Source: Candidatus Poribacteria bacterium (GTDB lineage: Bacteria > Poribacteria > WGA-4E > JAJDTR01). Taken from it: a DNA stretch of 64,000 nucleotides. The notes beneath the pieces were generated by a model that was not told the DNA's origin, did not search any database, and worked only from the letters and a program-made list of their open reading frames with translations. The position numbers and the translations under genes are program-made. The stretch covers positions 2,144,001-2,208,000 of the forward strand of contig CBDCTK010000002.1 in the NCBI GenBank assembly GCA_965222225.1, written 5' to 3'. Below are positions 5,199 to 58,891 of this stretch, one piece after another (positions within the stretch are counted from its first letter, which is position 1; the number at the start of each line of letters is the position of its first letter).

Positions 5199-5477
5199 GA
5201 GCCTTTTTGAAATGTACATCTGTAGGGTGCGATTAACGGAGCGAAAAGCGACTGCGATAGAGATCTCCTGCGATCCAGCGACTGGATAAGGAGCGCGATA
5301 GAACTCTTACCAGCCTCTAAAAGCCCCCACGGGGCGGAAGGTGTATAGAAACGCCAGAACCCCGTGCACCTAAGCCCCAGCGGGGCGACAGGTACGTAGC
5401 ATACAACAATAAATTCATGAATAAACTTCCTATAAAAGACCAAAAATTGCTCTGCTACCGATTATTCAAACAAAATC
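5199..5477. mobile_element. IS5-like MITE (non-autonomous) containing REP-like hairpins and two 35-bp units
   Basis: Left end GAGCCTTTTTGAAA and right end TTCAAACAAAATC resemble the ends at 46435-46716 and 51195-51369. Confidence 0.55.
5231..5306 (+). repeat. Two copies of the 35-bp GA-hairpin unit (5231-5265, 5272-5306)
   Basis: GATTAACGGAGCGAAAAGCGACTGCGATAGAGATC and GATCCAGCGACTGGATAAGGAGCGCGATAGAACTC. Confidence 0.85.
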
Positions 5478-5569
5478 TTAGGCGTTCGTTGTCCGAACAT
5501 TATTGGGAGCTACATGGTGGCCAAAGAGCATAGGAGTTCATAGATGTTGACATCAGGAGACTGCGTTTG

Positions 5570-6928
5570 ATGGATACGAACTCCAAACTATCACGGTTAC
5601 TTGAGACACTCGTGAATCGTTGGAACTCCTGGGATGAGTATAGCGAATACTATATTGAATTAGCTATCAAACTAGTGGCAAATCCTGACGCGTCGTCCAT
5701 TACGTGGGAAAAAAAGTTGTTCCGTGAAATGAAGCGGGAACTTGCTCCAGAGGATCTGAAAAACCTGGGAAAATACATTCAACAGTCCTTATCTGCAGTT
5801 CGGTATGCCGAGAAAAAACGCCGAGAAGCAGTACGCCGCAGAGAGGAAGCACTCAAGCGCGAACAGGAGCGTGCTGCGAAAAAACGTCGAGACAGGGAAC
5901 GCTTGTTGAAGAAGCAGCGCCAGGAAGCAGCGTACCGAAGAAGTTTAGCACGAAAACACGAACGAGAACGTGCTGAGAAAGAACGTCAGGAACGAGCTCG
6001 TCGAGAAAATGAAAAACGCGGGTTGCTAAAGAATCTGAAGGAGCATTTTGAACAAGACTTCCTCAACGCTGACCGCTTCTATCAAGATCGATGTACCAAT
6101 CACATATCGTTTGAGGAGTATGAGACTGAAAAAATCACCTTTGTGCAATCTTGGGCGGAAAATTATAGTTTAGACCCGATGCCAGACGAGGAACAAGCGG
6201 CGGCAATTAGCGCTGTCGAAGGTAATATTCAAGTAGTAGCTCGGGCAGGCAGCGGCAAGACGGCGACCTTGGTCAACCGTGCGCTGTTCTTGCAGGAGCA
6301 CTGTGGCGTATCGCCTGACCAGATGTTACTCTTGGCGTTTAATCGTAAGGCTGCGTATGAGATGCGAGATCGCATTGCTTCATTCGTACAAGAATCTACG
6401 CCTCACGTAATGACGTTTCATGCACTAGCTTTTGCGATGGTTCAACCTGAAAAGATCCTATTAGACGAACCTGATGGCGAACAGAGCCAAAGCCGCGTTC
6501 TGCAAGGCGTGGTTGACAGCTATTTACGCAATCCTGTCTATTACGACAGGATTCGTGATTTGATGATGAAACACTTTCGCACCGACTGGGAACGTATTGT
6601 CTCAGGTGGGTACGATAGAACGCTGAACGAGATGCTGCGCTATCGCCGGTCGTTGCGCTGTGAAACGCTTGATGGCAAGCCCGTGAAATCGTATGGCGAA
6701 AAAGCTATTGCGAACTTCCTATTTGAACACAGCATCAAATACAAATATGAACCGCTTTTCTGGTGGGGCCCGAAAAAACGCCACCCTTACCATCCAGACT
6801 TCACTATACCTCGTTATAAGGTGGCAATTGAATACTTTGGTCTTAGTGGTAATCCTGGTTATGACAAGATGTCCGAGGAAAAGCGCAATTATTGGCGAAA
6901 TAAACCTAACTGGCGACTACTTGATTAC
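5570..6928 (+). pseudogene. Second UvrD/helicase IV-like paralog, 3'-truncated by IS1595
   Basis: Highly similar to 2511-5096 (VVARAGSGKT, LLLAFNR, KSYGEKAIANFLFEH) but homology ends at WRLLDY, exactly at the IS left end. Lacks Walker B and the C-terminal motifs. Confidence 0.85.
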
Positions 6929-8176
6929 GGAATTAGTAGCTTGTAGCTTTTAGACTGACGACAAACATAAAACTTGGTACCCTGTCGTAAATCTTTTCGT
7001 CACACGTAGATGTCCATAGTGACTATTCTTCTCGTAGGAGTTTGCTATGGACATTTTGAATCTTATGAAAGAGTTTCCAAATCAAGAATCTTGTCTCAGA
7101 TTTATAGAGGAAAAACGTTGGAAGGACGGTGTTTGCTGTATCCACTGTGGCAGTGAAAAAGTTGGACGCAAGAACAAAAACGACATTACTACTGGTTGGA
7201 ATTGCTACGATTGTGAATCTAGCTTTTCGGCTACAGCAGGAACCATCTTCCATGGTACCAAGATACCTCTCCAGAAATGGTTTTTGGCTATCTCAATTCT
7301 TTCCAATGCCAAGAAAAGCATATCGAGTTGTCAGCTTGCTCGTGACTTGGACATGAATCAAAAGTCCGCTTGGTATATGGCAATGCGCCTCCGTGAGAAA
7401 ATGAGTGATAGTGATGAATTGCTGAAAGGGATAGTTGAAGCGGACGAAACCTATGTCGGCGGCAAACCCAGAGCAAAATCTAAGAGAGGTAGAGGCACAA
7501 ATAAATCTCCCGTCATCGGCGTAGTCGAGAGAGGCGGTCGGGTGGTTGCTAAATTCATGAAGGTTCTATCTGGTGAAAATATCAGAGAATTCATCCTTAG
7601 CAATGTCTCACCCGATGAGTCTATTCTTATGACTGATGAATTTCGCTCTTACAATAGTCTGGACGAAGATATCGAAAGACATGTTATCCATCACCAAGAG
7701 AGATATGTTTCTGAGGACGGCGTAACTCACACCAACACCATCGAGTCGTTTTGGGCTTGTGTCAAGAGGTCATTCTACGGAACGCATCATCACTACAGCA
7801 AGAAGTGGCTGCCACTGTATATCATGGAGTCTTGCTGGAAATATAATCGCAGAAAAGATGATGAGATTTTCATAAGATTTTTTGATGAATGCTTCACCTG
7901 AGCCACATGAATTGTTTGGCTATCGGTATATTCTGTCAACGACAACATCATGGTGTGCTGAAAATCCCATAGTGTTGGAAATTAAAATCCCGCAGATAAC
8001 CCGCAATGCTCCCGCGAGCATGTACAAACGCTTGGTCAACATGATATGCCTCCATTTCTCTCTTATAGAGATGTATTTTAGTGTGAATCAAGATTCCGAA
8101 CACTGTCTAAAATGATTGTACATTAAGAAGAGAAAAGCAAGCAAATCGACCAAAAAGCAGTTAACTACTAAGTCCC
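6928..8176 (+). mobile_element. IS1595-family insertion sequence (~1.25 kb)
   Basis: Imperfect 26-bp terminal inverted repeats: CGGAATTAGTAGCTTGTAGCTTTTAG vs reverse complement of the right end GGGACTTAGTAGTTAACTGCTTTTTG (18/26 by eye). AT-richer than the flanks; encloses the transposase. Confidence 0.8.
7047..7901 (+). CDS. IS1595-family DDE transposase
   Basis: Zn ribbon CIHC...CYDC, GTIFHGTKIPLQKWF, EADETYVGG, TDEFRSY, HTNTIESFW; AGGAG RBS. Confidence 0.95.
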   Translation: MDILNLMKEFPNQESCLRFIEEKRWKDGVCCIHCGSEKVGRKNKNDITTGWNCYDCESSFSATAGTIFHGTKIPLQKWFLAISILSNAKKSISSCQLARDLDMNQKSAWYMAMRLREKMSDSDELLKGIVEADETYVGGKPRAKSKRGRGTNKSPVIGVVERGGRVVAKFMKVLSGENIREFILSNVSPDESILMTDEFRSYNSLDEDIERHVIHHQERYVSEDGVTHTNTIESFWACVKRSFYGTHHHYSKKWLPLYIMESCWKYNRRKDDEIFIRFFDECFT

Positions 8177-8749
8177 AACTTGCATCGTCTGTGGCTTCCA
8201 CATACGTAATCGAGACAATCAACCGGTTGGAGACTGCGGGTATCCCCTTGCCGGTGGTAAGTTGCGTAGATACCGGACACCTTTTCCAAATTCATGAAAT
8301 TCCGCAGATGACGGAACTGTGCGTTGGGGCGTATGCGTTATTCGATTATTCTCACGTGTGCCGAAATGAATGCACACTTGCGGACTGCGCGCTGGTAGTC
8401 TTAGCGACCGTGATTGACACGCCGAGCAAGAATCTGGCAATTGTGAATGCCGGGACGAAAACTTTTACCAAGACTCATCCCATGCATACCGATTGGCTAC
8501 CAGCACCGTCTTGTCCTCTAGCTGGAGATAAGGCTGGGGAAGGTGTTCGGTGTGACCAAAAATAGCACTAGCGCGACGCTCTGTCATCTGACGGAAGCGT
8601 ACGGACATCTAAGCATGACGGACAATCAATTTATGGTTGGGGAGAAAGTGTGTATCATTCCGGCAAATTTAGAAGCAACAATCAGTGCTCACGACACATT
8701 TGCCTTTGTTCAAGACGATCGTGTGCTGGAGATATTGCCAATTCTGTAG
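8177..8749 (+). pseudogene. 5'-truncated, frameshifted D-threonine aldolase/DSD1-like PLP enzyme (alanine racemase fold)
   Basis: TELCVGAYALFD..CALVVLATVI..AIVNAGTK, then in another frame LTEAYGHL..VGEKVCIIPAN..HD, matches the C-terminal half of this family. The N-terminus is replaced by the IS. Confidence 0.7.
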
Positions 8750-20736: not shown

Positions 20737-20809
20737 ATGGGACTTGTGCAGCTGAATGCTCAAAAGTAATGTAGGTCGGCGAGTCACTATGCGTAATGGG
20801 ATTTCTATC

Positions 20810-20844
20810 GATCAACTGACCGAATAGGGAGGGCGATAGAGATC
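20810..20844 (+). repeat. 35-bp GA-hairpin unit
   Basis: GATCAACTGACCGAATAGGGAGGGCGATAGAGATC, abutting the end of an opposite-strand unit (GGATTTCTATC). Confidence 0.85.
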
Positions 20845-37132: not shown

Positions 37133-37261
37133 TGGAGATTACAGTAGGGTTGTACTGGGAAATCTGTCCTAGTGCAGTCACCCATATAAAACAAAAGATA
37201 GATGGATTGAAACCGGGATAAACACCGGTTCAATCAGAGTCTAATATCTGGAGATTAAACC

Positions 37262-38299: not shown

Positions 38300-39067
38300 A
38301 TGAAAAGAATATGCTATATCATCACTGCCGTCCTGCTTTTGATACCTTTTCTGTCTGCCTCCGCCAAAATAAAATTCCATACAACTTTGGAAAGCGAGGC
38401 CTCCGTCAAGAGAGAAGGTGGGAGCGTCATTGGCGGCGGTCAATTTGTGCCGGGAGTCAGAGAAAATGGATTCATCAGTGACGAGAGATCGGCGGTGGTA
38501 CACTTCCCCATGCACGAGATGTTGGGTAAACATTATCTGGATGAAGGCACCTTGGAATGCTGGTTGATTTTGGGTTGGGACATAGATAAGTTCACCAACA
38601 CAACCGGCAAGGACGAAGCCTTTATGTTCTGGGCGTATAACAGAGCCGAAACAGATGCCATCGGTTTAATGATTGGCGGAAGAAGAAACCATCCGGTTGC
38701 ACAATTCCGTGTGCGGGAAGTGCGTAACGAGTGGCACAACGCCGTAAGCGCCAAGCTGAATTGGAAAGAGGATGAAACCCATCACATGGCTGGAACATGG
38801 GGAGCAGCCGGGCTCCATCTGTATCTTGATGGCGAATTGGCTGCCCAAGACCGTTACAAGGGTGGTCCCGCCAATATTATTGAACGGCTGTCAATAAACA
38901 ACAACGAAACTGATCCGGCTACATTTCCCACATACTCGATCGTGGATGAATTGAAGATTCATGACGAACAGTTGCCCGCCCGCGCAATTCCTGATTTGAT
39001 GACCTTATCCGTAGAGCCGGGGGCAAAACTCGCCACAACGTGGGGCGGCATTAAGAAGATCCGGTGA
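38300..39067 (+). CDS. Secreted LamG domain protein, tandem paralog
   Basis: Collinear with the upstream gene (GTLECWL, EAFMFW, IERLSINNNE); ends VEPGAKLATTWGGIKKIR. Confidence 0.85.
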   Translation: MKRICYIITAVLLLIPFLSASAKIKFHTTLESEASVKREGGSVIGGGQFVPGVRENGFISDERSAVVHFPMHEMLGKHYLDEGTLECWLILGWDIDKFTNTTGKDEAFMFWAYNRAETDAIGLMIGGRRNHPVAQFRVREVRNEWHNAVSAKLNWKEDETHHMAGTWGAAGLHLYLDGELAAQDRYKGGPANIIERLSINNNETDPATFPTYSIVDELKIHDEQLPARAIPDLMTLSVEPGAKLATTWGGIKKIR

Positions 39068-39108
39068 TGCCCGGGTGACATCCTAACTCTTAAGGAATAT
39101 CTTTCGAT

Positions 39109-40350: not shown

Positions 40351-40394
40351 TCGCCGACCTTTATCTGGATTCTTCGGCTTTACAGAATCGCGTA

Positions 40395-40448
40395 AGGGGT
40401 AGATAGCGGTGTTGTGATTTCAAAAACATCTATCTACCCCTCATTTTT
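40395..40448 (+). terminator. Probable intrinsic terminator
   Basis: AGGGGTAGATAG...CTATCTACCCCT followed by a T-run, downstream of the sialidase. Confidence 0.5.
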
Positions 40449-40499
40449 TGTCTGCACATTCATTACGGGTGATTAAGGTCTGTTGACATTTGACATCAC

Positions 40500-40781
40500 G
40501 TAGGTTGGGTTGAACCGGAACCGTGAAACCCAACGCTTAATCCAACTGAAGCGCGAAACGAGAGTTGGCGGAGCAGCAACCTGTAGGGGTTGGGTTTCCC
40601 AACCCATTGGGCGAGAGGAAGATCCCTATCGCACGGGATTTAATATCGCAGAATTGGCTATCGCGGTCGTTATTCACTCCCTTGGTCTCCTTATTCAGTC
40701 GCTGGATCGCTATTCACTCAATTGATCGTTCGTTTGAGAGATTTACTATCGCACTCACTATTCGTTCGTTTGATCCCCTAC
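40500..40781. repeat. REP cluster with nested 35-bp units
   Basis: GTAG REPs at 40500-40534 and ~40583-40610; units at 40653-40687 and 40741-40775 (minus) plus split copies. Confidence 0.85.
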
Positions 40782-40881
40782 GATTGGGTATTTATCGACG
40801 AATTGCGGACACAACTCGCATAAATGTCAACATGCCCTAGTTTTCGCCCGCTTAGAAAAGGAGCCGCGTATTACGGTTGAT

Positions 40882-42915: not shown

Positions 42916-43195
42916 ATTATGGTTTGCGCAGTCGGACACCCAAAGCCTAGCAGTAAAATCTTCGATTGAATTGAAGATGGGATCTTCATCTATTGCCTGT
43001 TTCCACACAAAACAGCATGTCAGACTGTCCACGGGCGAGCGCACGATTAGCGGGACGCGCAATGAGTAGGAGCAATCTCCAAGTCGCGAGCCCTGTGGCG
43101 AGCAAAGCTTGCAAGCGAAGGTGCGAAGGAAAGTAATCCATGAATAGGTTGTGGATTCGTCAACCGGTTCACTGCATGGCTGCGACGCACTCCGG

Positions 43196-44704
43196 CTATC
43201 GCGGAAGGGCGCGGGGTTCATCCCATTCCTGCCGCGCGCGATAGAACACCGGCGCATAAGACTCGGCATAAAGCGGTTTGCTCAAGGGACCCACGATAGG
43301 ACCAAACCGATCCTGCGAATATGGTTGCGGGATCGGCGTGCCGAGCAGCGCTTCAATTCGCGCTCGACGGTCATTCACCACATCCGGATGCTGATCGTGC
43401 ACGTTCTCTCGCTCATCTGGGTCCGCTGACAAGTTGTACAACTCGGGGTTCGAATCCTCGAAATCCCAGCCTGTTGCGTAGACCCAGTGCTCGTCGCGAA
43501 TCGAAACACGACCGCCCCACGCCGTAGTGATGTACGGGCGCAGCGCTTCTTCCTGGCCAGTAACCAGCCGCCAAGCGCTTTGCCCATCCATCTGCTCGAC
43601 CCCATCTCCTACCCCCGCTAAATCAAGGATGGTCGGACCAAGGTCGTAGTTTTGCACCCAGGCTTCAATGTCGCGGTCCCGCCATCCTTCGCTCGGGTGC
43701 CGAATCGTTAAATTCTGCTGCGTGTTGAACGGATGCAGCTCGGTGTTGCGTTTACCCCAGCCCGTGTGATCAGCTAGCTCGGTGCCGTGGTCGGTGAAGA
43801 AGATGATTACCGTGTCATCCTGCAGTCCCAGTGCATCGAGTTGATCGAGAAAGCGGCCCACATGCGCATCCGTAAAGGTGATTTCGCCTTTGTAACAGGC
43901 GGTATAGTAATCAATATAATCCCGCGTTTTGACATCAAGATCCGCGCCCCTCATATCCGAAAAGAATGAGCGATCAAGAATATGGCGAGGCTGTTGGTAT
44001 ATCGGACCTTGCCACGAGTCGTCGTAGCGGTGCACATAGTCCAGCGGCGGATCGAACACCTCGTGCGGCTCGAAGCAGTCGATCCAAAGAAAGAAGGGCG
44101 CATTCGACGAATTGTCGCGCAGCCATCGGCTGGCTCTGGCGAAAACTTGGGCACCGAACCAGTCCGATTCCTCTTTTCGGTCGCGTATATTGTGTAAATG
44201 TTGAAGGAAATGGCTTCTGCCTGCCAGTTGAGAAGCATCGGGTTCGGCAGGTTCGTAAGCTCCGAAATAGTCCTTGAACAGTTGACTGATGAGATTCCAA
44301 GAACCGGTGCGCCAGCCATCACCTCCCGCGCCTCGTATGTGGTCCCACGTCATGAAACCACGGAGGTGATTCATGTTGGGCTTGAACAGATGGGGCGTGT
44401 CGGCTATCAAGCCCGTAGCGTAACCGTGTTCCAACAGAATCTCGGCAATGGTTGGGTACTCGTCCGGAATCTCGTGCCATCCGTAGTAGCCGTGAATGTA
44501 CGGGAATCCACGCATGCCGGTGAAACAACCGTTTCGGACTTGGACAGTCTGACCGGGTTCCGTGAAGCAGCGGTTGAATCGCGCAGATTCAGCGGCGAGC
44601 GCGTCAAGCGCCGGCGTGGCGACATCGCTAAACCGCTTGTTTGGCCCCACGATGTCGGCGCGGAATGTGTCGAGGCAAATGACTACGATGTTCAGGTGTT
44701 CCAT
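43196..44704 (-). CDS. Sulfatase-superfamily hydrolase
   Basis: NIVVICLDTFRAD, PALDALA, PFFLW..FEPH, TDHG, ELYNLSADPDEREN. Confidence 0.88.
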   Translation of the reverse strand: MEHLNIVVICLDTFRADIVGPNKRFSDVATPALDALAAESARFNRCFTEPGQTVQVRNGCFTGMRGFPYIHGYYGWHEIPDEYPTIAEILLEHGYATGLIADTPHLFKPNMNHLRGFMTWDHIRGAGGDGWRTGSWNLISQLFKDYFGAYEPAEPDASQLAGRSHFLQHLHNIRDRKEESDWFGAQVFARASRWLRDNSSNAPFFLWIDCFEPHEVFDPPLDYVHRYDDSWQGPIYQQPRHILDRSFFSDMRGADLDVKTRDYIDYYTACYKGEITFTDAHVGRFLDQLDALGLQDDTVIIFFTDHGTELADHTGWGKRNTELHPFNTQQNLTIRHPSEGWRDRDIEAWVQNYDLGPTILDLAGVGDGVEQMDGQSAWRLVTGQEEALRPYITTAWGGRVSIRDEHWVYATGWDFEDSNPELYNLSADPDERENVHDQHPDVVNDRRARIEALLGTPIPQPYSQDRFGPIVGPLSKPLYAESYAPVFYRARQEWDEPRALPR

Positions 44705-44762
44705 AGTTGCGATAGTCCTTTCGACCCATCTTACTCATCTAACATGAAATGTGCAGTTTCTT

Positions 44763-44867
44763 GTAGGGATCAAACGAGTGAATAGCGAGTAAGATTTTCT
44801 ATCGCCCTCCTTATCCAGTCGGTTAATCGATAGAGATCCCCTTAACCGAGTGAATAACGAGGGATCC
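44763..44867. repeat. Nested 35-bp units after GTAGG
   Basis: Plus-strand unit split by a minus-strand unit (44794-44828), plus a truncated copy at 44841-44862. Confidence 0.85.
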
Positions 44868-45012
44868 CAAAGAATTCCCATTACGTTACACCATTATCGT
44901 TTGCTATGAATCGGGGCAACTTGCGCAAGTCCTAATGTAGTTTGCAAACGGACGGTTTCAATGGCACCATCGCAGAACACAGCGGTATGGCATGTCTGAC
45001 CGCTGGTTCACA

Positions 45013-46125
45013 CTATGCGAGGGTATCATCAGCCCCATCCGTGAGCCATTCGAGATCGAACCGCGCGAGGGTAAGCCCATCGTAGCCGCTTCCAAAACCA
45101 TGGTCATAGAGGCAGCAGATGCTCATATCGGGGGCAACACAAATACCCGAATAAGACGAGTGGTCTGCGTGGAGAACTTTTCCGGCGTTCCAAGTGCGGC
45201 ACTCATCATAGCTGATTCGAACGGTCATGCGCTCACGCCGGGTGCTGCTGGCAGGATTGGAGAAGAGAACACGGTTTTTGTCATGCGAAGTTTCGTCCGT
45301 GAAACGAGTCACGCCCGCATGGCAGATGGGTTCCGGCAGCGTTTCATCCCAGCCGAACTCCGAGAAGGACAAGCCATCATCATGACTCCAAGCATAGGCA
45401 CGTCGATGGTCGCCCACGTAGTTCCTGCAGTTCAAGTATAAGGCACCGTCATGCGTCTGAACGATGTTCGATTCGTTCGTGCCCGCTTGCGCCACGCCGC
45501 CTATGTGCCAATGTTCGCCGTGGTCGTCGCTGTAGATGACGTGCGAATGGCCAGATGCCGTCAGCGTTGCCACAGAGGACTTCACGTCTTGGTAACCGCC
45601 GGCTACGCCTTGAACATGATCGCACGGGATGACGAGCCGTCCGCTTTTCAATTGGATGCCGCCCCCGGGGCCCGTCGCATACCACGTCCACGAAGGGGCT
45701 TTTACCTCGTCTGTAATCTCCCGTGGCGTGTCCCACGTTTTGCCATCGTCTTTGCTCGACGTAACCCAGACCGTGCGCGGGGCTTTGCCTTCGACAATCA
45801 GGTTTTCGGGACCGTCCGCAAAGTTTTGGCAAAACACCAGCCAGATTGTTCCGGTGTCCCTATCCACTACCGGGGCAGGATTGCCATCGGTGTCCGGACC
45901 GGTGCGGACTGCAATCTGCATAGGTTCCCACGTGCGCCCATTGTCGAAACTGCGTCTGAGGCCGATGTTAATATCGCCAGAGTCGCCACCCATTACCGTT
46001 GGATCACTGTTTCTGGCTTCACAGAACGCCAGCATAGTACCGCTCACAGATCTTGTCAGGACGGGAGTGGTATAGGCGCGATATCCGCCTTCGCCGTTAT
46101 TAAATAATTGTGTCTGTTCAATCAT
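45013..46125 (-). CDS. Sialidase-like (GH33) protein
   Basis: LAFCEAR, SFDNGRTW, GNPAPVVD, WYATGPGGGIQL, SDDHGEHW, LFSNPA, SYDECRTW, SYS. Confidence 0.9.
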   Translation of the reverse strand: MIEQTQLFNNGEGGYRAYTTPVLTRSVSGTMLAFCEARNSDPTVMGGDSGDINIGLRRSFDNGRTWEPMQIAVRTGPDTDGNPAPVVDRDTGTIWLVFCQNFADGPENLIVEGKAPRTVWVTSSKDDGKTWDTPREITDEVKAPSWTWYATGPGGGIQLKSGRLVIPCDHVQGVAGGYQDVKSSVATLTASGHSHVIYSDDHGEHWHIGGVAQAGTNESNIVQTHDGALYLNCRNYVGDHRRAYAWSHDDGLSFSEFGWDETLPEPICHAGVTRFTDETSHDKNRVLFSNPASSTRRERMTVRISYDECRTWNAGKVLHADHSSYSGICVAPDMSICCLYDHGFGSGYDGLTLARFDLEWLTDGADDTLA

Positions 46126-46434
46126 AGTCTTATCACACACCCAAATGTTGAGATATACAGTTTATGTTGGATTAGCCTGCGCTGTGCTAAGACTAGCGGC
46201 AAAACTTCCAAACATTGAATTCCATGATTTCAATGAATACGTCGTTTTCTCTCAAAATCAACGACTACCATCTGTGGTCATGCGCGCAAACGATTACCGC
46301 GCTATATTCTTTATAAGCACACCACAAAAACCATTGGTTGTCAAGCGTTTTAGATGAGTTGGAGAATCGGTCACAATTTGGGGATCGATCCGAAGGGTGC
46401 GGCACGTTTCAGAACATGTCGACAACATCGCTAT

Positions 46435-46716
46435 GAACCTGTTTGAAAAGTACATTTGTAGGATGCGATCAAAGGAATGAATAATGACCGCGATAGAGAT
46501 CCCCCTGCGCATCAGTCTCTAAAAGCCCTGGAAGGGCGACAGGTGTATAGCAATGCCGCAACCCCACTCACTTAAGCCCCAGCGTGGGATCAAGCGAGCG
46601 AATAGTGAGTGCGATAGAAATCCTGACAGGTGTATTGCCGGATGACGACAAAAACACGGAAAACCTTTTATCAAATCACCAAATGTGAGTTCGCAACCTA
46701 TTTTTCAAACAGGATC
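46435..46716. mobile_element. IS5-like MITE with REP-like hairpins and two 35-bp units (46467-46501, 46588-46622)
   Basis: Ends GAACCTGTTTGAAAA / TTTTCAAACAGGATC are inverted repeats; flanks TAT/TAA. Confidence 0.7.
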
Positions 46717-46885
46717 TAAAGAACGGCAATGTCCGTGCAGAAATAGAGGAGGATGTCGGCGCCAACGCGGTGTCGCCAGACCAATGACAAACTTTAGCGG
46801 TAGTCTCGTCAGCACAAAGACTCTTGACTCGCGTGATTGATAACGGCTATGGACGTTATCGTCGCGGTGTGGAATTCCAAAAGGC

Positions 46886-46914
46886 TTGACAGCGTAAGGT
46901 GTGAAGTATATAAT
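46886..46914 (+). promoter_or_regulatory. Consensus sigma70 promoter for the nfeD-floA operon
   Basis: TTGACA-17 bp-TATAAT. Confidence 0.75.
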
Positions 46915-47026
46915 AGTGTCGTGTAATTCGAACGTTTTGATTGCAGATTGATGTCAGACCGTCTCTGAGCAACCCAAAAACTATTCCACCTCACTCGCCT
47001 GCAGGACTTAGGAAGAGGTGATTGCC

Positions 47027-48556
47027 ATGTCTAGCAAAACACGTTTGACAAGCCACATATTAATAATGCTCGGCGTTAGCCTGCTAGCCATGTCATTGGT
47101 TTCATCGGCTCAAGATGACGCCTTGGTGCACATTGTCAACATACGGAATCAGATTGGTAGCGGGATAAGCGTCTACATCAGCAACGGCATTGAACGCGCC
47201 GAAACAGCCAATGCGGATGCCATTGTTTTTGATGTTGATACCCCCGGTGGTCGAGTGGATTCCGCGGTCGATATAATTGACGCCATTCAAGACACGGAGG
47301 TGCCAACCATCGCCTTTGTGAATAGAGAGGCAATCTCCGCAGGCGCAATGATTTCCATCGCATGCGATCAAATTGTGATGGTGTCTGGTGGAACGATTGG
47401 CGACTCCGCGCCGGTCTCGATTCAGGGAGAAGAGGCTGGGGAAAAAGCGGTTTCTTATATTCGCAAGACAATCAAATCAACCGCGGAACGACAAGGGCAC
47501 AATTTCCATATCGCAGTCACTATGGTTGACAAGAAACGGGTACTTGTCAGAATGGCAGACGGCGAAATCGTTTCGTTCAGGCCTGACACTTATCAAGAAA
47601 AGAGGCAAAACGGAGAGGAGATGGAAGTCATCTCCGCCGAGGGCGAGTTGTTGACTTTGACCACGGACGAAGCCTTAGAGTATGGTTTCGCGCATGGGCG
47701 CGCGGATACGATTGATGAGTTACTGGCGATGTACCGGATCGTCGAGATTGATGGGGCCAGGAAAGCACTGACAGAAGAAGCCATAGCGCAGAAGCAGGAA
47801 GAACTTGGCACCGCAAGCATGCAGTTCATTAAATCACTTGAAGGCGCGGCAACCGACGAAGCCATGGTTTCGTTGGCGGATCGGATTGTCATTTTTCTCA
47901 CGAGCCCCCTCATTAGCTCGCTCCTGCTCTCCCTCGGAATGCTTGGATTATGGATAGAAATTCAGTCCCCAGGATTCGGCCTTCCCGGGATGCTCGGTCT
48001 GCTATGTCTAGGAATCTTCTTCGGCGGACACATGCTGAGCCAAATTGACGCCCAGTGGGCAGCGCTGGCTTTTGTTCTGGGATTAGGATTAATTGTGGTA
48101 GAGGTTTTCATCTTACCGGGATTTGGCATTGCGGGGATTTCGGGCATCATTCTTATGTTCGGCGGTATATTTTATGTATTCAAGAGTGCCTATCAGTTTG
48201 AAACGGCAATTCTGGCGTTTTCATCTGTTATCGTCCTCACCGCCATCGGTGTGATTGCCGCGTTTTATCTCTTCCCAAAGACGCGCGCATGGAAGCATTT
48301 CGCTTTGGCAACCGAGATGAGTTCGGATATTGGCTATCATTCCGCAGGGGATGAAGATTTTCAGAGTTACATCGGACAGACCGGAACAGCGATTACACCC
48401 TTGCGTCCGGCTGGCGCAATCCGCCTCGCAGGTAAGCGCGTTGATGTGCTTACCGCAGGCGATTTCATCCCTTCTGAAACCCCCGTTAAAGTGATAGAAG
48501 TGGAAGGCTCAAAGGTCTTCGTTGAAGCCTTGGATGAGGCAACCAACACAGCGTAA
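47027..48556 (+). CDS. nfeD: Long NfeD (ClpP-like serine protease, TM and OB domains; YqeZ-like)
   Basis: DTPGGRVD, AISAGA, GTIGD, LLTLT..EAL, PGFG, TPLRPAG. Confidence 0.9.
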   Translation: MSSKTRLTSHILIMLGVSLLAMSLVSSAQDDALVHIVNIRNQIGSGISVYISNGIERAETANADAIVFDVDTPGGRVDSAVDIIDAIQDTEVPTIAFVNREAISAGAMISIACDQIVMVSGGTIGDSAPVSIQGEEAGEKAVSYIRKTIKSTAERQGHNFHIAVTMVDKKRVLVRMADGEIVSFRPDTYQEKRQNGEEMEVISAEGELLTLTTDEALEYGFAHGRADTIDELLAMYRIVEIDGARKALTEEAIAQKQEELGTASMQFIKSLEGAATDEAMVSLADRIVIFLTSPLISSLLLSLGMLGLWIEIQSPGFGLPGMLGLLCLGIFFGGHMLSQIDAQWAALAFVLGLGLIVVEVFILPGFGIAGISGIILMFGGIFYVFKSAYQFETAILAFSSVIVLTAIGVIAAFYLFPKTRAWKHFALATEMSSDIGYHSAGDEDFQSYIGQTGTAITPLRPAGAIRLAGKRVDVLTAGDFIPSETPVKVIEVEGSKVFVEALDEATNTA

Positions 48557-48650
48557 GACAGGATTCAATTTACACAGCGCACTCGGCCTCTCTATGCCCT
48601 TGAAGGAAAGATTGAATTTCTGCGACAATCTCCTATAAAAGGACGTGCTT

Positions 48651-49133
48651 ATGCCGCCGCTACCCCTCTTTCTCCTCGGCTTAGGGGTTTTACTGCTATT
48701 CATCGAAATCATTCTGCTTCCCGGTTTTGGTGCGGCTGGCGTGCCGGGAATTATTCTCATTTGCGTTGGTATCGGGATTGTTTGGATGGAACACAGTTGG
48801 GAAACCGCATCGCTTTACGCCGGTGGGACAGTTATCCTTATTATCCCACTTGCTATCTTGGGATTGTGGCTCGCTCCTCGAACTAGACTTGGACGAACCG
48901 TCATTCTCAAGGCCGCTCAAAATAGCGCGGACGGTTTCCAAGCTCCACCACAGGAATTAACGACGTTAGTCGGCCACTCCGGTCAGTCCGTGTCTCCCCT
49001 CAGACCGGCAGGAGTCGTCTTAATTGATGGCAAACGGGTGGATGTAGTCACCAATGGAGAATTCATCCAGCCCGAAACAGAAGTGGAAGTAGTTGCCGTA
49101 GAAGGAAGCCGGGTTGTTGTCCGGAGTCGGTAA
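48651..49133 (+). CDS. Short NfeD-like protein (TM plus OB fold)
   Basis: EIILLPGFG, SPLRPAG..IDGKRVDVV..VEGSRVVV. Confidence 0.85.
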   Translation: MPPLPLFLLGLGVLLLFIEIILLPGFGAAGVPGIILICVGIGIVWMEHSWETASLYAGGTVILIIPLAILGLWLAPRTRLGRTVILKAAQNSADGFQAPPQELTTLVGHSGQSVSPLRPAGVVLIDGKRVDVVTNGEFIQPETEVEVVAVEGSRVVVRSR

Positions 49134-49159
49134 ACACTCTTCAAATAAGGAGATTCTAG

Positions 49160-50065
49160 ATGGATGACATTACAGGTTTTACAGCGATTATCGCCGTATT
49201 GATACTGATTTTCCTGTTAGTTTTCTTTTGGTTTGTGCCCGTCGGTCTGTGGATTGCCGCCCAAGCGGCAGGCGTACGAATCCGCATAGTCGGCGACTTG
49301 GTCGGGATGCGTTTACGACGGGTGACCCCAAACGTAATAGTCAACGCGCTGATTAGCGCGACGAAAGCAGGTCTGACAGTTAAAACTACCGATCTTGAAG
49401 CCCACTACCTTGCGGGCGGAAACGTGTTGCGAGTCGTGAACGCGTTGATTGCCGCGGATAAAGCTAAAATCGACCTCAATTTTCAGCGCGCCACCGCAAT
49501 CGATTTGGCGGGACGCGATGTATTTGAAGCCGTGCAGGTAAGCGTCAACCCTCGCGTCATCACGACGCCGCGCATTAGCACGGTTGCGCTTGATGGCGTT
49601 GAGTTGATTGCCGTCGTGCGAATCACCGTCAGGACAAACATCAACAGGCTCGTCGGTGGTGCAGGAGAAGAGACAATCCTTGCGCGAGTCGGGGAGGGCA
49701 TTATCAGCGCAATTGGCGCCTCGGAGACTTATGAGGATGTCCTTGAAAATCCCGACGTTATCTCCAAGACCGTGTTGGATCGAGGCTTAGACGCGGGCAC
49801 CGCCTATGAAATTCTCTCCATTGATATTGCCGATGTCAACGTTGGGAAGAACATCGGAGCTGAACTCCAAGCCGAGCAGGCTGAAGCAGATCTGGTCGTT
49901 GCTCAGGCAAAGGCGGAGGAGAGGCGAGCGATGGCAATCGCGCGTAAGCAGGAAATGACAGCGAACGTGCAAAAGATGCGAGCCGCCGTTGTCGAGGCCG
50001 AGGCTTCCGTTCCACGCGCTCTCGCCGGTGCGTTCCGCGAAGGCACCTTAACATTACCATCATAA
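49160..50065 (+). CDS. floA: Flotillin-like protein FloA (YqfA/UPF0365)
   Basis: [54 protein letters not shown]. Confidence 0.92.
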
Positions 50066-50079
50066 AAGGAGGGTTTCAG

Positions 50080-51111
50080 ATGCCGTCAGCTGTTGCCATA
50101 CTTGCGGTTCTTGTTATTGTTTTTCTCATTTTCCTCACCACGTTCGTCCCTATCGGTTTGTGGATCGCTGCGATTGCGGCGAATGTCCGTGTGCGAATCT
50201 TTGGCGATCTGGTTGCCATGCGTTTGCGGCGCGTGCCTCCGAAAGGCATCATAGAGCCCCTAATCAACTCGACCAAGGCGGGGCTAAACCTTTCGCTTGA
50301 TGAACTTGAGGCGCACTATCTCGCTGGCGGAAGAGTTGCCAGTGTCGTCGCAGCGCTCATCGCTGCGGATAAAGCGAACATCTCACTAGGCTTCGCGCAA
50401 GCCGCCGCAATCGACCTTGCCGGTCGCGATGTACTGCAAGCGGTACAGGTCAGCGTCACACCGGAAATTATCGACATTCCCGCCAAGGGAGACAGCCAAC
50501 ACGGAATTACCGCCGTTGCGCGCGACGGCATTCAACTCATCGTCAAGGCACGGGTGACGGTGAGGGCAGACATCGATCGGCTGGTCGGCGGGGCTACCGA
50601 AGAGACGATTAAAGCCAGAGTGGGTGAAGGAATTATCACGACAATCGGCTCTGCGACAAGTCACAAGGAGGTCTTGGAAAGCCCGGTACGCATTTCGGAA
50701 ACCGTGCTCGAAAAAGGACTGTCTGCTGGAACTGCTTTTGAAATCTTGTCCATTGATATCGCCGACATTAACGTGGGCGAGAACGTAGGCGCCAAGCTGC
50801 AAACCGATCAAGCACAAGCCGAGTTGAAAATCGCTCAAGCGAAAGCGGAAGAGCGGCGAGCCCGGGCGCAAGCGGAGGAGGAGGAGAACAAAGCGCTCGT
50901 TGAAGAGATGACCATCACCCTTGTCGAGGCGGAAGCCGAAGTTCCTCGCGCCATTGCCGATTCCTTTGATTCGAGCCGAATGAGCGTCATGGACTACTAC
51001 AATCTCAGAAATATCCTCGCCGATACGGAGATGCGTCAAGCCATTGCTTCATCTGGCGGCGATGGCGAGATTGACACAACTCGATCGTCGCATTCCATGG
51101 GGCTTACGTAG
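50080..51111 (+). CDS. floA: Second flotillin-like protein FloA
   Basis: Same motifs, plus the C-terminal VMDYYNL.NI.ADTEMR..I that the first copy lacks. Confidence 0.92.
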
Positions 51112-51194
51112 GCAACCGAAGCAGGCTCGTGAGTTCGGCAATTAAGCGGCAGACTTAGCTCATCTTCATTTCGAACCTGTTCAAATCTCCATAA

Positions 51195-51369
51195 GAGCCT
51201 GTTTGAAAATTCATTTCGGGTAGAACTTGTGCCCTGAAACCGATCAAATGAGCGAATAGTGAGTGCGATAGAAATCCTGACAGGTGTATAGCAGGCGACC
51301 ACAAAAGCATGAAAAAGCCGCGCCCAAAGTGACCGAAATTGCTTTGCCACCTATTATTCAAACCGGCTC
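51195..51369. mobile_element. 175-bp IS5-like MITE with TAA target duplication, containing a 35-bp unit (51242-51276)
   Basis: TIRs GAGCCTGTTTGAA / TTCAAACCGGCTC; flanked by TAA at 51192-51194 and 51370-51372. Confidence 0.8.
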
Positions 51370-51788
51370 TAAGTGGTTTGCTCGCTAAGTATAAAGGTAT
51401 AATTTACTGTGACAGTATTCTAGTTAACCGAGTTATATACTGAATGTCTAAAAATTTATCACTGATGAATATATCATAAAGATTTAGAAAGTAAACCACT
51501 AAGTTCGACTTTGTACCTTTAAGCCGAATAACAGACGGTGTCAATCAAGCGTTGAAGAAAAGTGGAAGAGATTTTAGCCATCGGGCCTTTTTGGTTGACC
51601 ATTGAAAAAGTCGGCAGTGGTTTCTGCGACCATGCAGAACGTGTTAGGTTTCGCTTGAATTTTGGTGTTGCACGGCGGGGCAAGATGCCCCGTCTACGGA
51701 TTTGGTGCTGCACCGCTTTACGTTCAATCCAACTGTTGTACGTTTGTACAAAGTCGAGCTAAGGAAGTTACAGGTAAGGTAAACAATC

Positions 51789-52262
51789 GTGGATGAATTA
51801 ATTCAACTAATTCCGTTCATCATCATTGCACTGACTCTACTGGGACGCGTTTTTCTCCGCAAGAAGCCGCGGGAATCGGAACCGGAGGTTGTGCTGGAGG
51901 ATGAACGGGAAGTAACGCTGCCACCTTGGGGTAACATTGCAACCACGGATGACAATACCGGCGGGCCTTTACCTGACTTCTTGGAACTAGACGAACGGTC
52001 GCCATCACCGAAACCTAGTCCATCAGTAACAGCGGCGAAAGAAACTCAACCTCCGCCTGATACTACAGCGTCGAAACCAATTGAGCGTCCCACTTTAAAT
52101 CAGGCAGAGGAACGAAAAGAAGCCACTCCTGTCCGAACAGCGCCTCGTACAATTGCGGGCATTTCTCTAACATCTCAGACGATTCGTCAGGGAATCATAC
52201 TGCGCGAAATCCTTGGGCCTCCCAAATCCCTCCGACGCCGCCGTGCTGAAACAGAAAACTAG
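51789..52262 (+). CDS. Hypothetical membrane-anchored protein typical of nfeD-floA loci
   Basis: N-terminal TM, Pro-rich linker, C-terminal IRQGIILREILGPPKS. Confidence 0.65.
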   Translation: MDELIQLIPFIIIALTLLGRVFLRKKPRESEPEVVLEDEREVTLPPWGNIATTDDNTGGPLPDFLELDERSPSPKPSPSVTAAKETQPPPDTTASKPIERPTLNQAEERKEATPVRTAPRTIAGISLTSQTIRQGIILREILGPPKSLRRRRAETEN

Positions 52263-52338
52263 AGAAATGGGCAAGATTGTGGGGTAAGGAAATGATAATC
52301 CCCTCACAGAAGATAAGCCTGTCGTAAAGCGAGGCTGA

Positions 52339-57743: not shown

Positions 57744-58039
57744 GTCAGAACCTCCTTCAAATCAGTGGAAAAACCGTGGTCATACGTCCTGTGAATCGTC
57801 CTTTGAGGATTCTGTAAGGGTAGAAAAACAGGCTGCGTCACCCTGCTGTTTCCTATCGCAGGTGAAACCCTCTTTGTCGGGCATGTATTCAGTTATGCGT
57901 TTTTTTGAGTTGTAGTGAGATTGTCTAATCTGAGTGCGCAAAGTCCTAGAAACATCGTCAGGTAAATGACGGCTTCCGGTAGAGAACAATTTTTTCCCAA
58001 TTTCACACAGCGTGCACCGTCAATGTTGCTTTTTTAATT

Positions 58040-58477
58040 CTAGGAGTCCGACGCGCTACGCCATAGGTGGCAGCCAGTTGATCCAGCCACTAACACCAAC
58101 AAACCGTCAATAAACTCCCACCATACATCTTTTGCCGCTATACCGGCAGCGGGCAGGTTGTCTAGAAAAAAGTCGTAGGTCAAAAAGTTGGTGAAGAACC
58201 AAGGCGCCCGCAAGAGCGAGGCATAGAAAGCCACGTTGGCTTCCAAATACTCACGCGTGATTGGACTATCGGCTCCCCCATTTCCAACGGCTCGCTTCCG
58301 GGCGATATTCACGATTAACGCTACCAACACGGAGAACGCCATGAACCAATTCACAAATTTCCAGATCGGATATTGTGGAGATCCGTCGTGGTGGATCGGG
58401 GTAGTCACCCAGTTTATACCTACGACAATAGCGGTAGCTACGAGAATGATCCCGAGTATCCGTTTCAACGCTGACAT
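58040..58477 (-). CDS. Hypothetical four-TM membrane protein
   Basis: GGAGG RBS; four hydrophobic segments. Confidence 0.65.
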   Translation of the reverse strand: MSALKRILGIILVATAIVVGINWVTTPIHHDGSPQYPIWKFVNWFMAFSVLVALIVNIARKRAVGNGGADSPITREYLEANVAFYASLLRAPWFFTNFLTYDFFLDNLPAAGIAAKDVWWEFIDGLLVLVAGSTGCHLWRSASDS

Positions 58478-58692
58478 AAGTCATTGCCTCCCGATTTTAA
58501 TAACCGTGGTCGAATCAAGCGTATCAAAACTAAACGAGCTATATTCACCGCAACCCAAGTCGACTGTTCGGGACGCCCGACGCTTCTCGGAATTGTTGAC
58601 CGCCCCAAATTAGCACCGACGGATTATAGAATAGCCGGGTAAGACTGTCAAGCAAATTCAATAACTTAACCCAGGGGAAAACGCATCTGATT

Positions 58693-58891
58693 GTAGGAAT
58701 CAAGCGGAGTGAATAGATCAAGAGAGTGCGTAACGACCACGATAAAGATCACAGTGCAATAGGACGCTCTTCAAGCGGTTGAGTACGGAGTAGGAGTTCC
58801 TATCGATCAAAGGAACGGATAGTGACTGCGATAGAATTTCTCCCTCCTTAATCAGTCGGTTGATCGATAGAGATCCCTCGTTATTCCCTAC
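58693..58891. repeat. REP shell filled with multiply nested 35-bp units
   Basis: Begins GTAGG and ends GTTATTCCCTAC; full units at 58716-58750 and 58805-58839 with split units around them. Confidence 0.85.

What the first reader, a model, noticed from the sequence alone, without database searches (positions are those of the whole stretch)
5231..58839. Dispersed 35-36 bp mini-element folding into a covarying, strand-specific tandem-G.A hairpin
Seen: 15 full copies, all intergenic, at 5231+, 5272+, 12040-, 20810+, 35282+, 36857-, 36980+, 40653-, 40741-, 44794-, 46467+, 46588+, 51242+, 58716+ and 58805+. Consensus: GATCAA-V1-GA-V2-GRATA-V3-GA-V4-GCGATAGA-NN-TC, where V is a dinucleotide. V2 takes six values (GC, CT, CC, AC, AT, GT), and V3 is its reverse complement in 12/15 copies, 14/15 allowing G-T. 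V1/V4 pair fully in 11/15 allowing G-T. This gives a hairpin of two 2-bp stems separated by opposed GA/GA steps, a G..A-closed 5-nt loop and a basal ATC/GAT pair. Established: tandem sheared G.A pairs are stable in ssDNA and RNA and form only on the purine strand; the G-T wobble bias points to the same strand. Inference: this is a structure-selected, non-autonomous mobile unit recognised as a folded single strand. It is conceptually like integron attC sites, IS200/IS605 ends or cyanobacterial small dispersed repeats, but I do not recognise it as any of these. No mobilising enzyme is encoded in this window.
Basis: partly seen in the sequence, partly recalled or inferred. Interest (0 to 1): 0.92.

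Follow-up and report, generated by a model that had tools for sequence, protein, structure and literature searches.

The report
Tiny G·A-hairpin insertion element of Poribacteria
The repeat is a real, roughly 35-base DNA hairpin present about a thousand times in this sponge-symbiont genome; it behaves like one of the smallest mobile DNAs known, slotting whole into other hairpin repeats and into copies of itself.

Summary
Confirmed. The genome, a Candidatus Poribacteria relative by the titles of related loci, holds 1025 copies.

- **Structure.** Only the four predicted pairs covary (MI 0.41-1.15 bits). G-T/T-G cells outnumber A-C/C-A 468 to 72, so the purine strand is the folded one.
- **Mobility.** 57 of 1025 copies have an uninterrupted "empty" paralogue missing exactly 34-37 nt, with no target duplication. 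The hosts are other REP hairpins and the element itself. Occupancy of orthologous spacers differs between species.
- **DNA, not RNA.** Orientation ignores neighbouring genes (307 co-oriented, 282 opposed). It tracks local GC skew, as the genome's GTAG REPs do and a DDE-type MITE does not.
- **Enzyme.** Unresolved. Several Y1/HUH RAYT genes lie elsewhere in the genome, but each has its own REP type, inside which this element is merely nested. No subfamily is in every positive genome.

Best reading: a REP-like single-strand hairpin parasite moved in trans by RAYT-type enzymes.

This scan noted the same element earlier in another Poribacteria genome (e1-1444823). My literature searches found no description of it.

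The parts
5231..5267 (+). copy of the mini-element, directly behind GTAGGGTGC of a GTAG REP
   Evidence: 46.6 bits, E 9e-11; sequence
5272..5308 (+). copy, tandem to the previous one (41 bp apart)
   Evidence: 47.6 bits
12038..12074 (-). copy, followed by the tail and terminal repeat of a MITE remnant
   Evidence: 61.3 bits
20810..20846 (+). copy, preceded by an inverted tail fragment (window 20798-20813, - strand). The G005 orthologue carries a further nested insertion after position 10; G009 has no copy here
   Evidence: 55.4 bits
35282..35318 (+). copy; the orthologous spacer in G005 is 33 bp and has no copy
   Evidence: 48.4 bits
36855..36891 (-). degenerate copy (inner stem broken)
   Evidence: 44.8 bits
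36980..37016 (+). copy
   Evidence: 53.0 bits
40651..40687 (-). degenerate copy, nested behind part of another copy
   Evidence: 42.9 bits
40739..40775 (-). copy
   Evidence: 52.3 bits
44792..44828 (-). copy, with fragments at 44769-44795 (+) and 44846-44863 (+). The G005 spacer is 74 bp without a copy
   Evidence: 49.7 bits, fragments 21.3 and 19.0 bits
46467..46503 (+). copy inserted in the GTAG hairpin of a MITE
   Evidence: 56.4 bits
46588..46624 (+). copy inserted in the second GC-rich ('type A') hairpin of the same MITE
   Evidence: 56.4 bits
51242..51278 (+). copy inside a second MITE. The whole 642-bp spacer is 22-122 bp in the 9 other genomes of the genus
   Evidence: 51.5 bits
58716..58752 (+). 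degenerate copy
   Evidence: 39.8 bits
58805..58841 (+). copy, followed by an inverted fragment (58833-58865, - strand)
   Evidence: 51.8 bits, fragment 17.8 bits
46435..46715 (+). host MITE with terminal inverted repeats ..CCTGTTTGAAAA / TTTTCAAACAGG.., carrying the copies at 46467 and 46588
51194..51370 (+). second MITE of the same family, carrying the copy at 51242

Best explanation
The unit is a 34-37-nt non-autonomous mobile DNA element of the REP kind.

Fold. Its purine-rich strand folds as single-stranded DNA. Two 2-bp Watson-Crick steps (four covarying pairs) are separated by opposed GA/GA steps. They are capped by a GRATA loop closed by G and A. The whole sits, through an invariant AA-opposite-GC internal loop, on an invariant ATC/GAT foot, followed by the tail GCGATAG(ARATCC).

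Insertion. The whole unit is inserted without target duplication, behind a G or GA. It goes into places that can themselves be single-stranded:
- the hairpins of other REP families, almost always in the orientation of their GTAG strand;
- copies of itself;
- ordinary spacers.

Enzyme. It is most likely cut and joined in trans by Y1/HUH (RAYT-type) transposases, which the genome encodes outside the window, during replication.

Shown: existence, copy number, covariation, strand asymmetry, insertion as a unit, nesting, orientation bias, taxonomic range.
Inferred: sheared G.A geometry, recognition as folded ssDNA, identity of the enzyme.
For: Structure.
- Only the four predicted pairs carry mutual information.
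- 96.1% of cells are paired, against 76.6% in shuffles (0 of 500 reach it).
- G-T/T-G cells number 468, A-C/C-A cells 72.
- The base 5' of each GA is almost never A: 4, 4 and 8 of 1025 at positions 8, 12 and 19. The base 3' of each GA/loop-A is almost never T: 8, 6 and 9 of 1025 at positions 11, 18 and 22.
- There are 483 distinct 17-mers among the 1025 copies, so the signal does not come from a few cloned sequences.

Mobility.
- 76 of 1025 copies have their 12+12 flanks joined without interruption elsewhere in the genome.
- The missing lengths are 34 (8 copies), 35 (24), 36 (23) and 37 (2). None falls at 26-33 or 38-39; 11 fall at 41.
- Hosts include two sites of the GTAGGGTGCGCACTGCGCACC REP, the GC-rich type A hairpin, two other GTAG palindromes, and the element's own loop and arms.
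- 319 of 1025 copies sit behind a 5' piece of another copy.
- Orthologous spacers differ between species. The window 51125-51767 spacer is 22-122 bp in 9 of 9 genus members. At the 20810 site G005 has an extra nested insertion and G009 has none.

ssDNA and REP-like behaviour.
- Orientation against tandem neighbouring genes is 307 co-oriented to 282 opposed.
- 63-71% of copies have the purine strand on the locally C-rich strand. The odds ratio is 0.18-0.33. It holds after collapsing to 636 clusters and for isolated copies, with skew taken from ORFs only.
- Three GTAG REP families and type A show the same bias (60-68%). The terminal repeats of the DDE-type MITE do not (48%).
- Inside host REPs the unit is co-oriented with the GTAG strand: 47+19 against 2+0 in type C, 17 against 0 in type A, 21 against 0 in GTAGGAGCG.

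Enzyme.
- The genome has five Y1_Tnp matches plus a truncated sixth.
- No TnpB was found.
- A5A6 opposite G24C25 mirrors the A12A13-G26C27 mismatch that E. coli TnpA-REP needs (passages of PMC8266576).
Against: - No Y1 subfamily is found in all positive genomes. G021 and G027 (about 200 copies each) lack the subclass-1.2 type at E<=1e-10. G012 and G021 lack the 2.2 types. Genus g6 has both types but almost no copies.
- Next to every RAYT examined, the conserved flanking repeat is a different element, and this unit is only nested in it.
- The unit has no GT[AG]G tag of its own.
- Its 3' end is ragged (ATC plus 0-3 pyrimidines), and its 5' junction varies between G| and GA|. That is looser than the exact cleavage known for IS200/IS605.
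- Nearest-neighbour DNA parameters do not predict the hairpin (MFE 0 to -1.6 kcal/mol, z +0.8 to +1.8).
- RNA parameters give the proposed fold in 2 of 3 copies (a slightly different pairing in the third), but no better than shuffles (z -0.39, -0.64, +0.94).
- If G-rich means leading strand, the folded strand lies on the leading-strand template. From my recollection this is opposite to what is reported for IS608.
- Copies are not independent: many hitch-hike in MITEs and REPs. All p-values are therefore overstated.
Confidence: 0.55

Rival explanations
1. The unit is mobile and structure-selected, but it is moved by something other than a Y1/HUH transposase. Candidates are a tyrosine recombinase acting on folded DNA (as IntI acts on attC), a GATC-specific nicking enzyme, or an unknown protein.
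For: - No Y1 subfamily co-occurs with the element in all positive genomes.
- There is no GTAG tag.
- The ends are ragged.
- Most copies carry GATC at the 5' end and often at the 3' end. GATC is depleted genome-wide (O/E 0.57), and 1182 GATC sit in the 1025 copies.
- A two-copy tyrosine-recombinase gene (Phage_integrase, 5e-16) is among the 92 genes flanked by copies on both sides.
Against: - No specific association was shown: 92 of 4338 crude genes have copies on both sides, and most are ordinary genes.
- The orientation bias is shared with the RAYT-linked REPs.
- The unit is co-oriented with the GTAG strand of host REPs.
- An AA/GC mismatch is present in the stem.
Confidence: 0.25
2. The unit does not move by itself. 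It is a module of composite REPs and MITEs, and it spreads only by hitch-hiking, tandem duplication and gene conversion.
For: - At least 218 of 1025 copies lie in recognisable host repeats, and 319 lie behind pieces of other copies.
- MITE copies 92-98% alike carry it at the same site.
- Tandem arrays of 38-bp period exist.
Against: - The missing segment in the empty paralogues is sharply 34-37 nt, in at least six unrelated host sequences.
- Units in one array carry different, internally compensated stems.
- 411 of 1025 copies have flanks that fit none of the repeat contexts tested.
- 413 copies are isolated by more than 1 kb from any other.
Confidence: 0.12
3. It acts as RNA: a small structured transcript, a terminator or stabiliser, or a tandem-G.A protein-binding motif.
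For: RNA energy parameters return the proposed fold as the minimum-energy structure for 2 of 3 copies tried. Tandem G.A motifs are common in RNA (my own knowledge).
Against: - Orientation against neighbouring genes is random (307 to 282) but follows GC skew.
- There is no Rfam match at gathering score in the window, nor at E<=1 in window 46400-46700.
- Fold energies are no better than shuffles.
- There is no T-run behind the hairpin.
Confidence: 0.05
4. It is a double-stranded binding site for a DNA-binding protein, and no hairpin is involved.
For: The invariant blocks (GATCAA, GA steps, GCGATAG) could be contacts.
Against: Free, nested, reverse-complement covariation at four pairs, with 3-4 pair types each, is not expected of a duplex site. 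Nor is the one-sided excess of G-T.
Confidence: 0.03

Closest known systems
REP sequences with their RAYT/TnpA-REP transposases (REPtrons, REPINs)
   Same: Short extragenic imperfect palindrome in hundreds of copies. Strand-specific. It has a conserved unpaired AA/GC step in the stem, like E. coli REPs (PMC8266576 passages). Its orientation bias against GC skew matches that of the genome's own GTAG REPs. RAYT genes are present in the genome.
   Different: - No GT[AG]G or CGTC tag.
- Only four Watson-Crick pairs, around non-canonical G.A steps.
- 483 stem variants among 1025 copies, rather than one master sequence.
- Close neighbours are direct, not inverted (260 to 72). In P. fluorescens 93% of doublets are inverted (PMC3116915 passages).
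- It inserts as a singlet, into other REPs.
- No cognate RAYT was identified.
Small dispersed repeats (SDR) of heterocystous cyanobacteria (Elhai et al. 2008, Genome Res; recalled, the paper is not held in the library)
   Same: Very small units with no coding capacity. They appear as clean insertions inside other repeats and inside each other, by an unknown mechanism.
   Different: A different phylum and, as far as I recall, unrelated sequences. I could not compare sequences or check whether SDRs show covarying G.A hairpins or a skew-linked orientation.
Subterminal hairpins of IS200/IS605 elements and their gene-less derivatives
   Same: Folded-strand recognition by a Y1 enzyme, and insertion without target duplication behind a short target.
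   Different: One hairpin instead of distinct left and right ends. Ragged ends. The target is only G/GA. No TnpB in the genome. The only IS200-like protein here (subclass 1.2) is flanked by a different hairpin.
Integron attC sites
   Same: A recombination site recognised by shape as a folded single strand, with conserved unpaired bases and a free stem sequence.
   Different: attC sites are longer and sit at cassette ends beside an intI gene (my own knowledge). Here there are about 1000 dispersed 35-nt units with no cassette context. Not tested further.

Membership tests
REP / RAYT (REPtron) elements | Short (about 20-60 bp) extragenic imperfect palindrome in hundreds of copies | tested here: met
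   1025 copies. 874 of 1022 copies on the main contig lie outside crude ORFs, which cover 81% of the DNA.
REP / RAYT (REPtron) elements | Conserved 5' GT[AG]G (or CGTC) tag at the foot of the hairpin | tested here: not met
   The unit's own conserved columns hold no such tag. GT[AG]G lies within 13 nt upstream in 349 of 1025 copies, where it belongs to the host REP.
REP / RAYT (REPtron) elements | A cognate RAYT gene flanked by inverted copies of the same REP | tested here: inconclusive
   Copies flank the subclass-1.2 gene, the 2.2a gene of G015 and the 2.2b genes of G009 and G000. In each case they are nested in that gene's own REP type. Of 80 homologue loci, only the three with 87-91% identity carry an exact copy of the unit's 26-nt core in their flanks (two others match only at 2-3 mismatches).
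REP / RAYT (REPtron) elements | Conserved unpaired step in the stem (E. coli type: AA opposite GC) | tested here: met
   A5 in 986, A6 in 1006, G24 in 971 and C25 in 1002 of 1025 copies. They lie opposite each other in the fold. The requirement in E. coli is from passages of PMC8266576. This is a sequence-level match only.
REPIN | Replicative unit is an inverted doublet of REPs | tested here: not met
   Of 332 neighbour pairs within 400 bp, 260 are direct and 72 inverted. Empty sites lack one single unit.
IS200/IS605 ends and derivatives | Distinct left and right subterminal hairpins around tnpA/tnpB or their remnant | tested here: not met
   One hairpin in 34-37 nt. No OrfB_IS605 match in the genome.
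IS200/IS605 ends and derivatives | Insertion without duplication, 3' of a fixed tetra- or pentanucleotide | tested here: inconclusive
   No duplication was seen. The left flank ends in ..CG..CGA..GGG or ..GAT(C), and no fixed word emerged.
Cyanobacterial small dispersed repeats | Sequence membership in SDR1-8 | not testable with these tools
   The paper and its sequences are not held (searches list only papers that cite it).
Integron attC | Cassette-end position beside intI, with R/L boxes | not tested
   Not searched for. The dispersed intergenic and nested positions do not look like cassette arrays.
Any Rfam RNA family | Match to a curated covariance model | tested here: not met
   0 matches at gathering score in the 64-kb window. 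0 matches at E<=1 in window 46400-46700.

The most novel reading that the evidence does not exclude
The unit is a generalist hyper-parasite of REP-RAYT systems. It is a 35-nt single-strand hairpin held together mainly by sheared G.A pairs. Several unrelated RAYTs recognise it by shape rather than sequence, and it is pasted into the very hairpins on which those enzymes work. Its stems diversify freely because only the geometry is read. This would make it the smallest self-contained mobile DNA unit, and a case of a transposon's non-coding parasite having a parasite of its own.
Probability: 0.25. Interest if true: 0.85.

Novelty: new variant of a known kind. Interest (0 to 1): 0.68.

Why it matters
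- **Size limit.** REPs are usually thought to move only as inverted doublets of about 100 nt. Here a single 34-37-nt hairpin shows clean insertion footprints, which lowers the size limit for a mobile unit.
- **Unusual structure.** The fold rests on non-Watson-Crick G.A steps with only four free base pairs. Those pairs take about 80 combinations, giving a natural mutational scan of what a single-strand DNA enzyme must read.
- **Handle on mechanism.** The orientation bias shared with RAYT-linked REPs, and absent from a DDE-type MITE, ties REP-like elements to replication in an uncultured phylum.
- **Annotation.** About 1000 copies plus their nesting account for much of the spacer DNA and of the assembly breaks in these sponge-symbiont genomes.

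Tried and rejected
- **Thermodynamic folding.** DNA parameters do not predict the hairpin on either strand. RNA parameters give the proposed fold in 2 of 3 copies, but no better than shuffles. Support therefore rests on covariation, not energy.
- **Public runs.** 20 of the 24 listed runs hold the stretch, 6 of them RNA libraries, but all are kept as contigs. Laid on window 35000-52300, contigs break at the repeats. Joints have sides of 21-37 letters (one of 64) in a high-depth repeat region. One such joint, seen in 3 runs, skips exactly 40651-40686. None of this can show expression, strand or a true strain-level empty site.
- **Base-exact orthologous empty sites.** Spacers of the four genus members compared are too diverged (genes about 85% identical) for exact borders. 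Only presence or absence could be read.
- **Model-based genome count.** The covariance-model scan of the own genome scored only 150 of about 5055 candidates, so I give no model-based genome count.
- **A cognate RAYT.** The subclass-1.2 gene first looked cognate. That was rejected when 31 of its 45 Poribacteria homologue loci (my reading) proved to be flanked by a different hairpin. The same happened for the 2.2a and 2.2b genes.
- **Genes flanked on both sides by copies.** 92 of 4338, mostly ordinary genes. No lead.
- **Flank complementarity.** Only modestly enriched: 142 against 94 copies with >=6 nt. Most copies are therefore not at the tip of a perfect host hairpin by this test.
- **In genus g4.** Only 9-31 copies per genome sit in the GGTTGAGC| context, so the unit is not simply part of that REP.
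- **Other families and collections.** No TnpB. One weak reverse-transcriptase match. The Y2_Tnp search is uninformative because its control rang nowhere. Viral contigs gave 0 exact matches.
- **Literature.** Searches (listings and abstract starts only, beyond the papers cited) showed no description of this element. The REP tables of PMC6006769 might list Poribacteria-like cases that I could not see.

Full report
**What is there**

The two remaining sites are degenerate copies. I aligned the 15 window copies with 57 copies from syntenic regions of four other genomes of the genus. All 15 lie between the long ORFs.

The window is G000:C2:2144001-2208000 of a 5.70-Mb, two-contig genome with 50% G+C. 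Loci that encode relatives of one of its proteins are titled Candidatus Poribacteria MAGs.

**Structure**

The whole genome holds 1025 copies at up to 4 mismatches, with the eight variable positions left free: 240, 236, 237, 185 and 127 copies at 0-4 mismatches.

| Pair | Mutual information (bits) |
|---|---|
| 11-19 | 1.15 |
| 8-22 | 0.98 |
| 7-23 | 0.77 |
| 12-18 | 0.41 |
| 34-35 (neighbouring columns) | 0.39 |
| every other pair | <=0.21 |

(All values.)

- On 69 distinct sequences of five genomes, 96.1% of cells are standard pairs, against 76.6 +/- 1.2 in shuffles (0 of 500). The covariation score is 0.601 against 0.206 (0 of 500), and <=0.111 when the partners are slid. All four inner pairs change on both sides.
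- The invariant ATC(2-4)/GAT(26-28) foot cannot be judged by covariation.
- Across the four pairs there are 468 G-T/T-G cells and 72 A-C/C-A cells. The purine strand is therefore the one kept pairable. A strand-biased C-to-T drift on an often single-stranded purine strand would give the same asymmetry.
- The pair alphabets are restricted. The base 5' of each GA step is almost never A, and the base 3' of it almost never T. This fits my recollection that tandem sheared G.A pairs in DNA prefer a pyrimidine-GA-purine setting (recalled, not checked in a paper).
- Purine-rich single strands can fold stably through sheared G.A pairs while the pyrimidine strand does not. This is documented for human satellite III (passages of PMC11014236).
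- Energy models do not carry the claim. DNA parameters predict nothing. RNA parameters return the fold for 2 of 3 copies tried, without beating shuffles.
- A5A6 face G24C25. The same AA-GC mismatch sits in the stem of E. coli REPs and is needed by their transposase (passages of PMC8266576).

**Diversity**

The 1025 copies hold 483 different 17-nt hairpins. The outer stem has 10 common states and the inner stem 8. The two are nearly independent (0.73 bits shared, of about 3). I have no tested explanation for this near-combinatorial variety. It is unlike the master-sequence clouds described for REPINs.

**Mobility**

For each copy I joined 12 nt of left flank to 12 nt of right flank at 126 border combinations, and looked the joins up in the genome.

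- 76 of 1025 copies have such an uninterrupted join more than 500 bp away.
- The missing segment is 34, 35, 36 or 37 nt in 8, 24, 23 and 2 copies. It is never 26-33 or 38-39 nt. It is 41 nt in 11 copies.
- The insert starts at position 2 or 3 ((A)TCAA) and ends at ATC plus 0-3 pyrimidines. There is no duplication.
- Hosts are two sites of the GTAG REP GTAGGGTGCG|CACTGCG|CACCAGCC, the GC-rich hairpin GCGGGG|CGACAGG, two further GTAG palindromes (one at its exact centre), and the element itself behind each of its GA steps.

By upstream context:

| Context | Copies of 1025 |
|---|---|
| Behind a 5' piece of another copy | 319 |
| In the type C REP | 87 |
| In the type A hairpin | 59 |
| In or behind other GTAG words | 72 |
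| Behind an inverted tail | 50 |
| Tandem | 27 |
| None of these | 411 |

- Tandem arrays of 38-bp period carry a differently compensated stem in each unit.
- Between species of the genus (genes about 85% identical), occupancy of orthologous spacers differs.
- The window spacer 51125-51767 is 22-122 bp in all 9 other genomes.
- At the 20810 site G005 shares the copy but has a further insertion behind its position 10, and G009 has none.
- Exact orthologous borders could not be read.

**DNA, not RNA, and tied to replication**

- Between tandem genes the unit is co-oriented 307 times and opposed 282 times.
- Against local GC skew it is strongly biased. With +/-25 kb windows the table is [[167, 324], [393, 138]].
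- With skew taken from ORFs only, 65% of copies have the purine strand on the C-rich strand. The figure is 66% of the 599 clusters that have a majority orientation (636 clusters in all), and 63% of 413 isolated copies.
- The same bias is seen for three GTAG REP families and for type A (60-68%). It is not seen for the terminal repeats of the DDE-type MITE (48%).
- Inside host REPs the unit is almost always co-oriented with the GTAG strand. That is the strand RAYTs process (PMC8266576 passages).
- The skew profile of this genome is patchy. I therefore do not say which template is meant. Copies are not independent, so the p-values are overstated.

**The enzyme**

The genome has five Y1_Tnp matches and a truncated sixth.

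- **Subclass 1.2.** The intact 157-aa protein (L001) has the motifs DHIH, WQ and YIKNQEAHH of TnpA-Y1 subclass 1.2. Quentin et al. listed no REP for that subclass (PMC6006769, sections 12, 17, 18). It is flanked by the unit in inverted orientation. However, in 31 of the 45 Poribacteria homologue loci (my reading) the inverted flanking repeat is a different element: a GC-rich hairpin plus a ..TATAG tail. Only the three closest loci carry an exact copy of the unit's core in their flanks.
- **Subclass 2.2-like.** The 2.2a genes are flanked by GTAGGTTGGGTTGARC REPs and the 2.2b genes by type C REPs. The unit is nested in both.
- **No universal subfamily.** No subfamily is in all positive genomes.
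- **Other candidates.** No TnpB was found. There is one weak RT match.

I therefore hold the Y1 assignment at roughly even odds. The alternative of another enzyme stays open. GATC depletion (O/E 0.57), set against the GATC-bearing ends of the unit, is an untested lead.

**Range**

| Group | Genomes with the unit | Copies per genome |
|---|---|---|
| Genus g1 (other than the own genome) | 9 of 9 | 637-1367 |
| Genus g4 (another family) | 4 of 4 | 194-213 |
| Genus g2 | 1 genome | 3 |
| Genus g6 | 2 of 20 | 21 and 1 |
| Genus g12 | 1 of 1 | 1 |
| Family f2 | 0 of 100 | - |

- In a sample of 151 genomes of the phylum, 17 have the unit.
- Viral contigs gave no exact match.
- The patchy spread over two families suggests transfer or loss. 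I did not test which.

**Comparison and novelty**

- The unit works like a REP. It fails the GTAG-tag and REPIN-doublet features, and its RAYT link is unproven.
- It behaves like the cyanobacterial small dispersed repeats as I recall them. I could not read that paper.
- Rfam has no match.
- My searches found no description in print.
My tests agree with it independently.
- This report adds the genome-scale covariation, the restricted pair alphabets, the skew-linked orientation shared with REPs, the strand rule inside host REPs, the RAYT survey and the phylum range.

Noticed in passing
window 46435-46715 and 51194-51370; G000:C2:822152-823038: A MITE family with terminal repeats GAGCCTGTTTGAAAA: 209+189 ends in the genome, and about 70 complete copies of 120-380 bp. 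It derives from an 887-bp IS with a 276-aa open frame. A DDE/IS5-type transposase is my reading; this ORF was not scanned against Pfam. The MITE interior is made of REP-type hairpins.
   Followed up: partly
L001 (G000:C2:3080255-3080728) and loci L006-L050: Y1 proteins with the subclass-1.2 signature (Y---Q--HH) are flanked in inverted orientation by a GC-rich hairpin plus a ..TATAG tail in 31 of 45 Poribacteria loci. The stem changes between loci. Quentin et al. 2018 list this subclass as having no REP.
   Followed up: partly
L135 (G000:C2:1545570-1545977) and G000:C2:1.50-1.60 Mb: A subclass-2.2-like RAYT gene is truncated exactly where a copy of the mini-element begins. It lies in the densest region of the genome for the element (67 copies in 100 kb), which also holds tandem arrays of 38-bp period at 1578411-1578560.
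   Followed up: partly
whole genome G000: GATC is depleted (observed/expected 0.57 by a second-order Markov estimate). Other 4-bp palindromes are at 0.81-0.94. 1182 of the 18912 GATC sites lie in the mini-element copies.
   Followed up: no
whole contig C2: GC skew changes sign about a dozen times along the 5.6-Mb contig instead of giving two arms. This points to many rearrangements or assembly joins at repeats.
   Followed up: no
window 51499-51764: A 265-bp repeat with dozens of copies at 70-90% identity in all ten genomes of the genus. It starts and ends with the inverted words CGACTTTGTAC / GTACAAAGTCG. Not examined.
   Followed up: no
L136 (G000:C2:458772-461202); second copies at C2:1315165 and C2:4161168: A 382-aa ORF with no Pfam match stands beside a 315-aa tyrosine recombinase (Phage_integrase, 5e-16). 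Each occurs twice in the genome and is flanked by mini-element copies.
   Followed up: partly
window 40193-40769: The summed contig depth in four public runs is 20-100 times that of the neighbouring bins. This spacer therefore holds a repeat that is very abundant in those samples.
   Followed up: no
window 35384-35420; G005 and G003 orthologues: A GTAG palindrome (GTAGGGAACGCAGATCTGCGTTCC(C)TAC) is conserved at the orthologous place in G005, and a copy of the same palindrome occupies the window 58.9-kb spacer's orthologue in G005 and G003. This is an example of an old, fixed GTAG REP.
   Followed up: no
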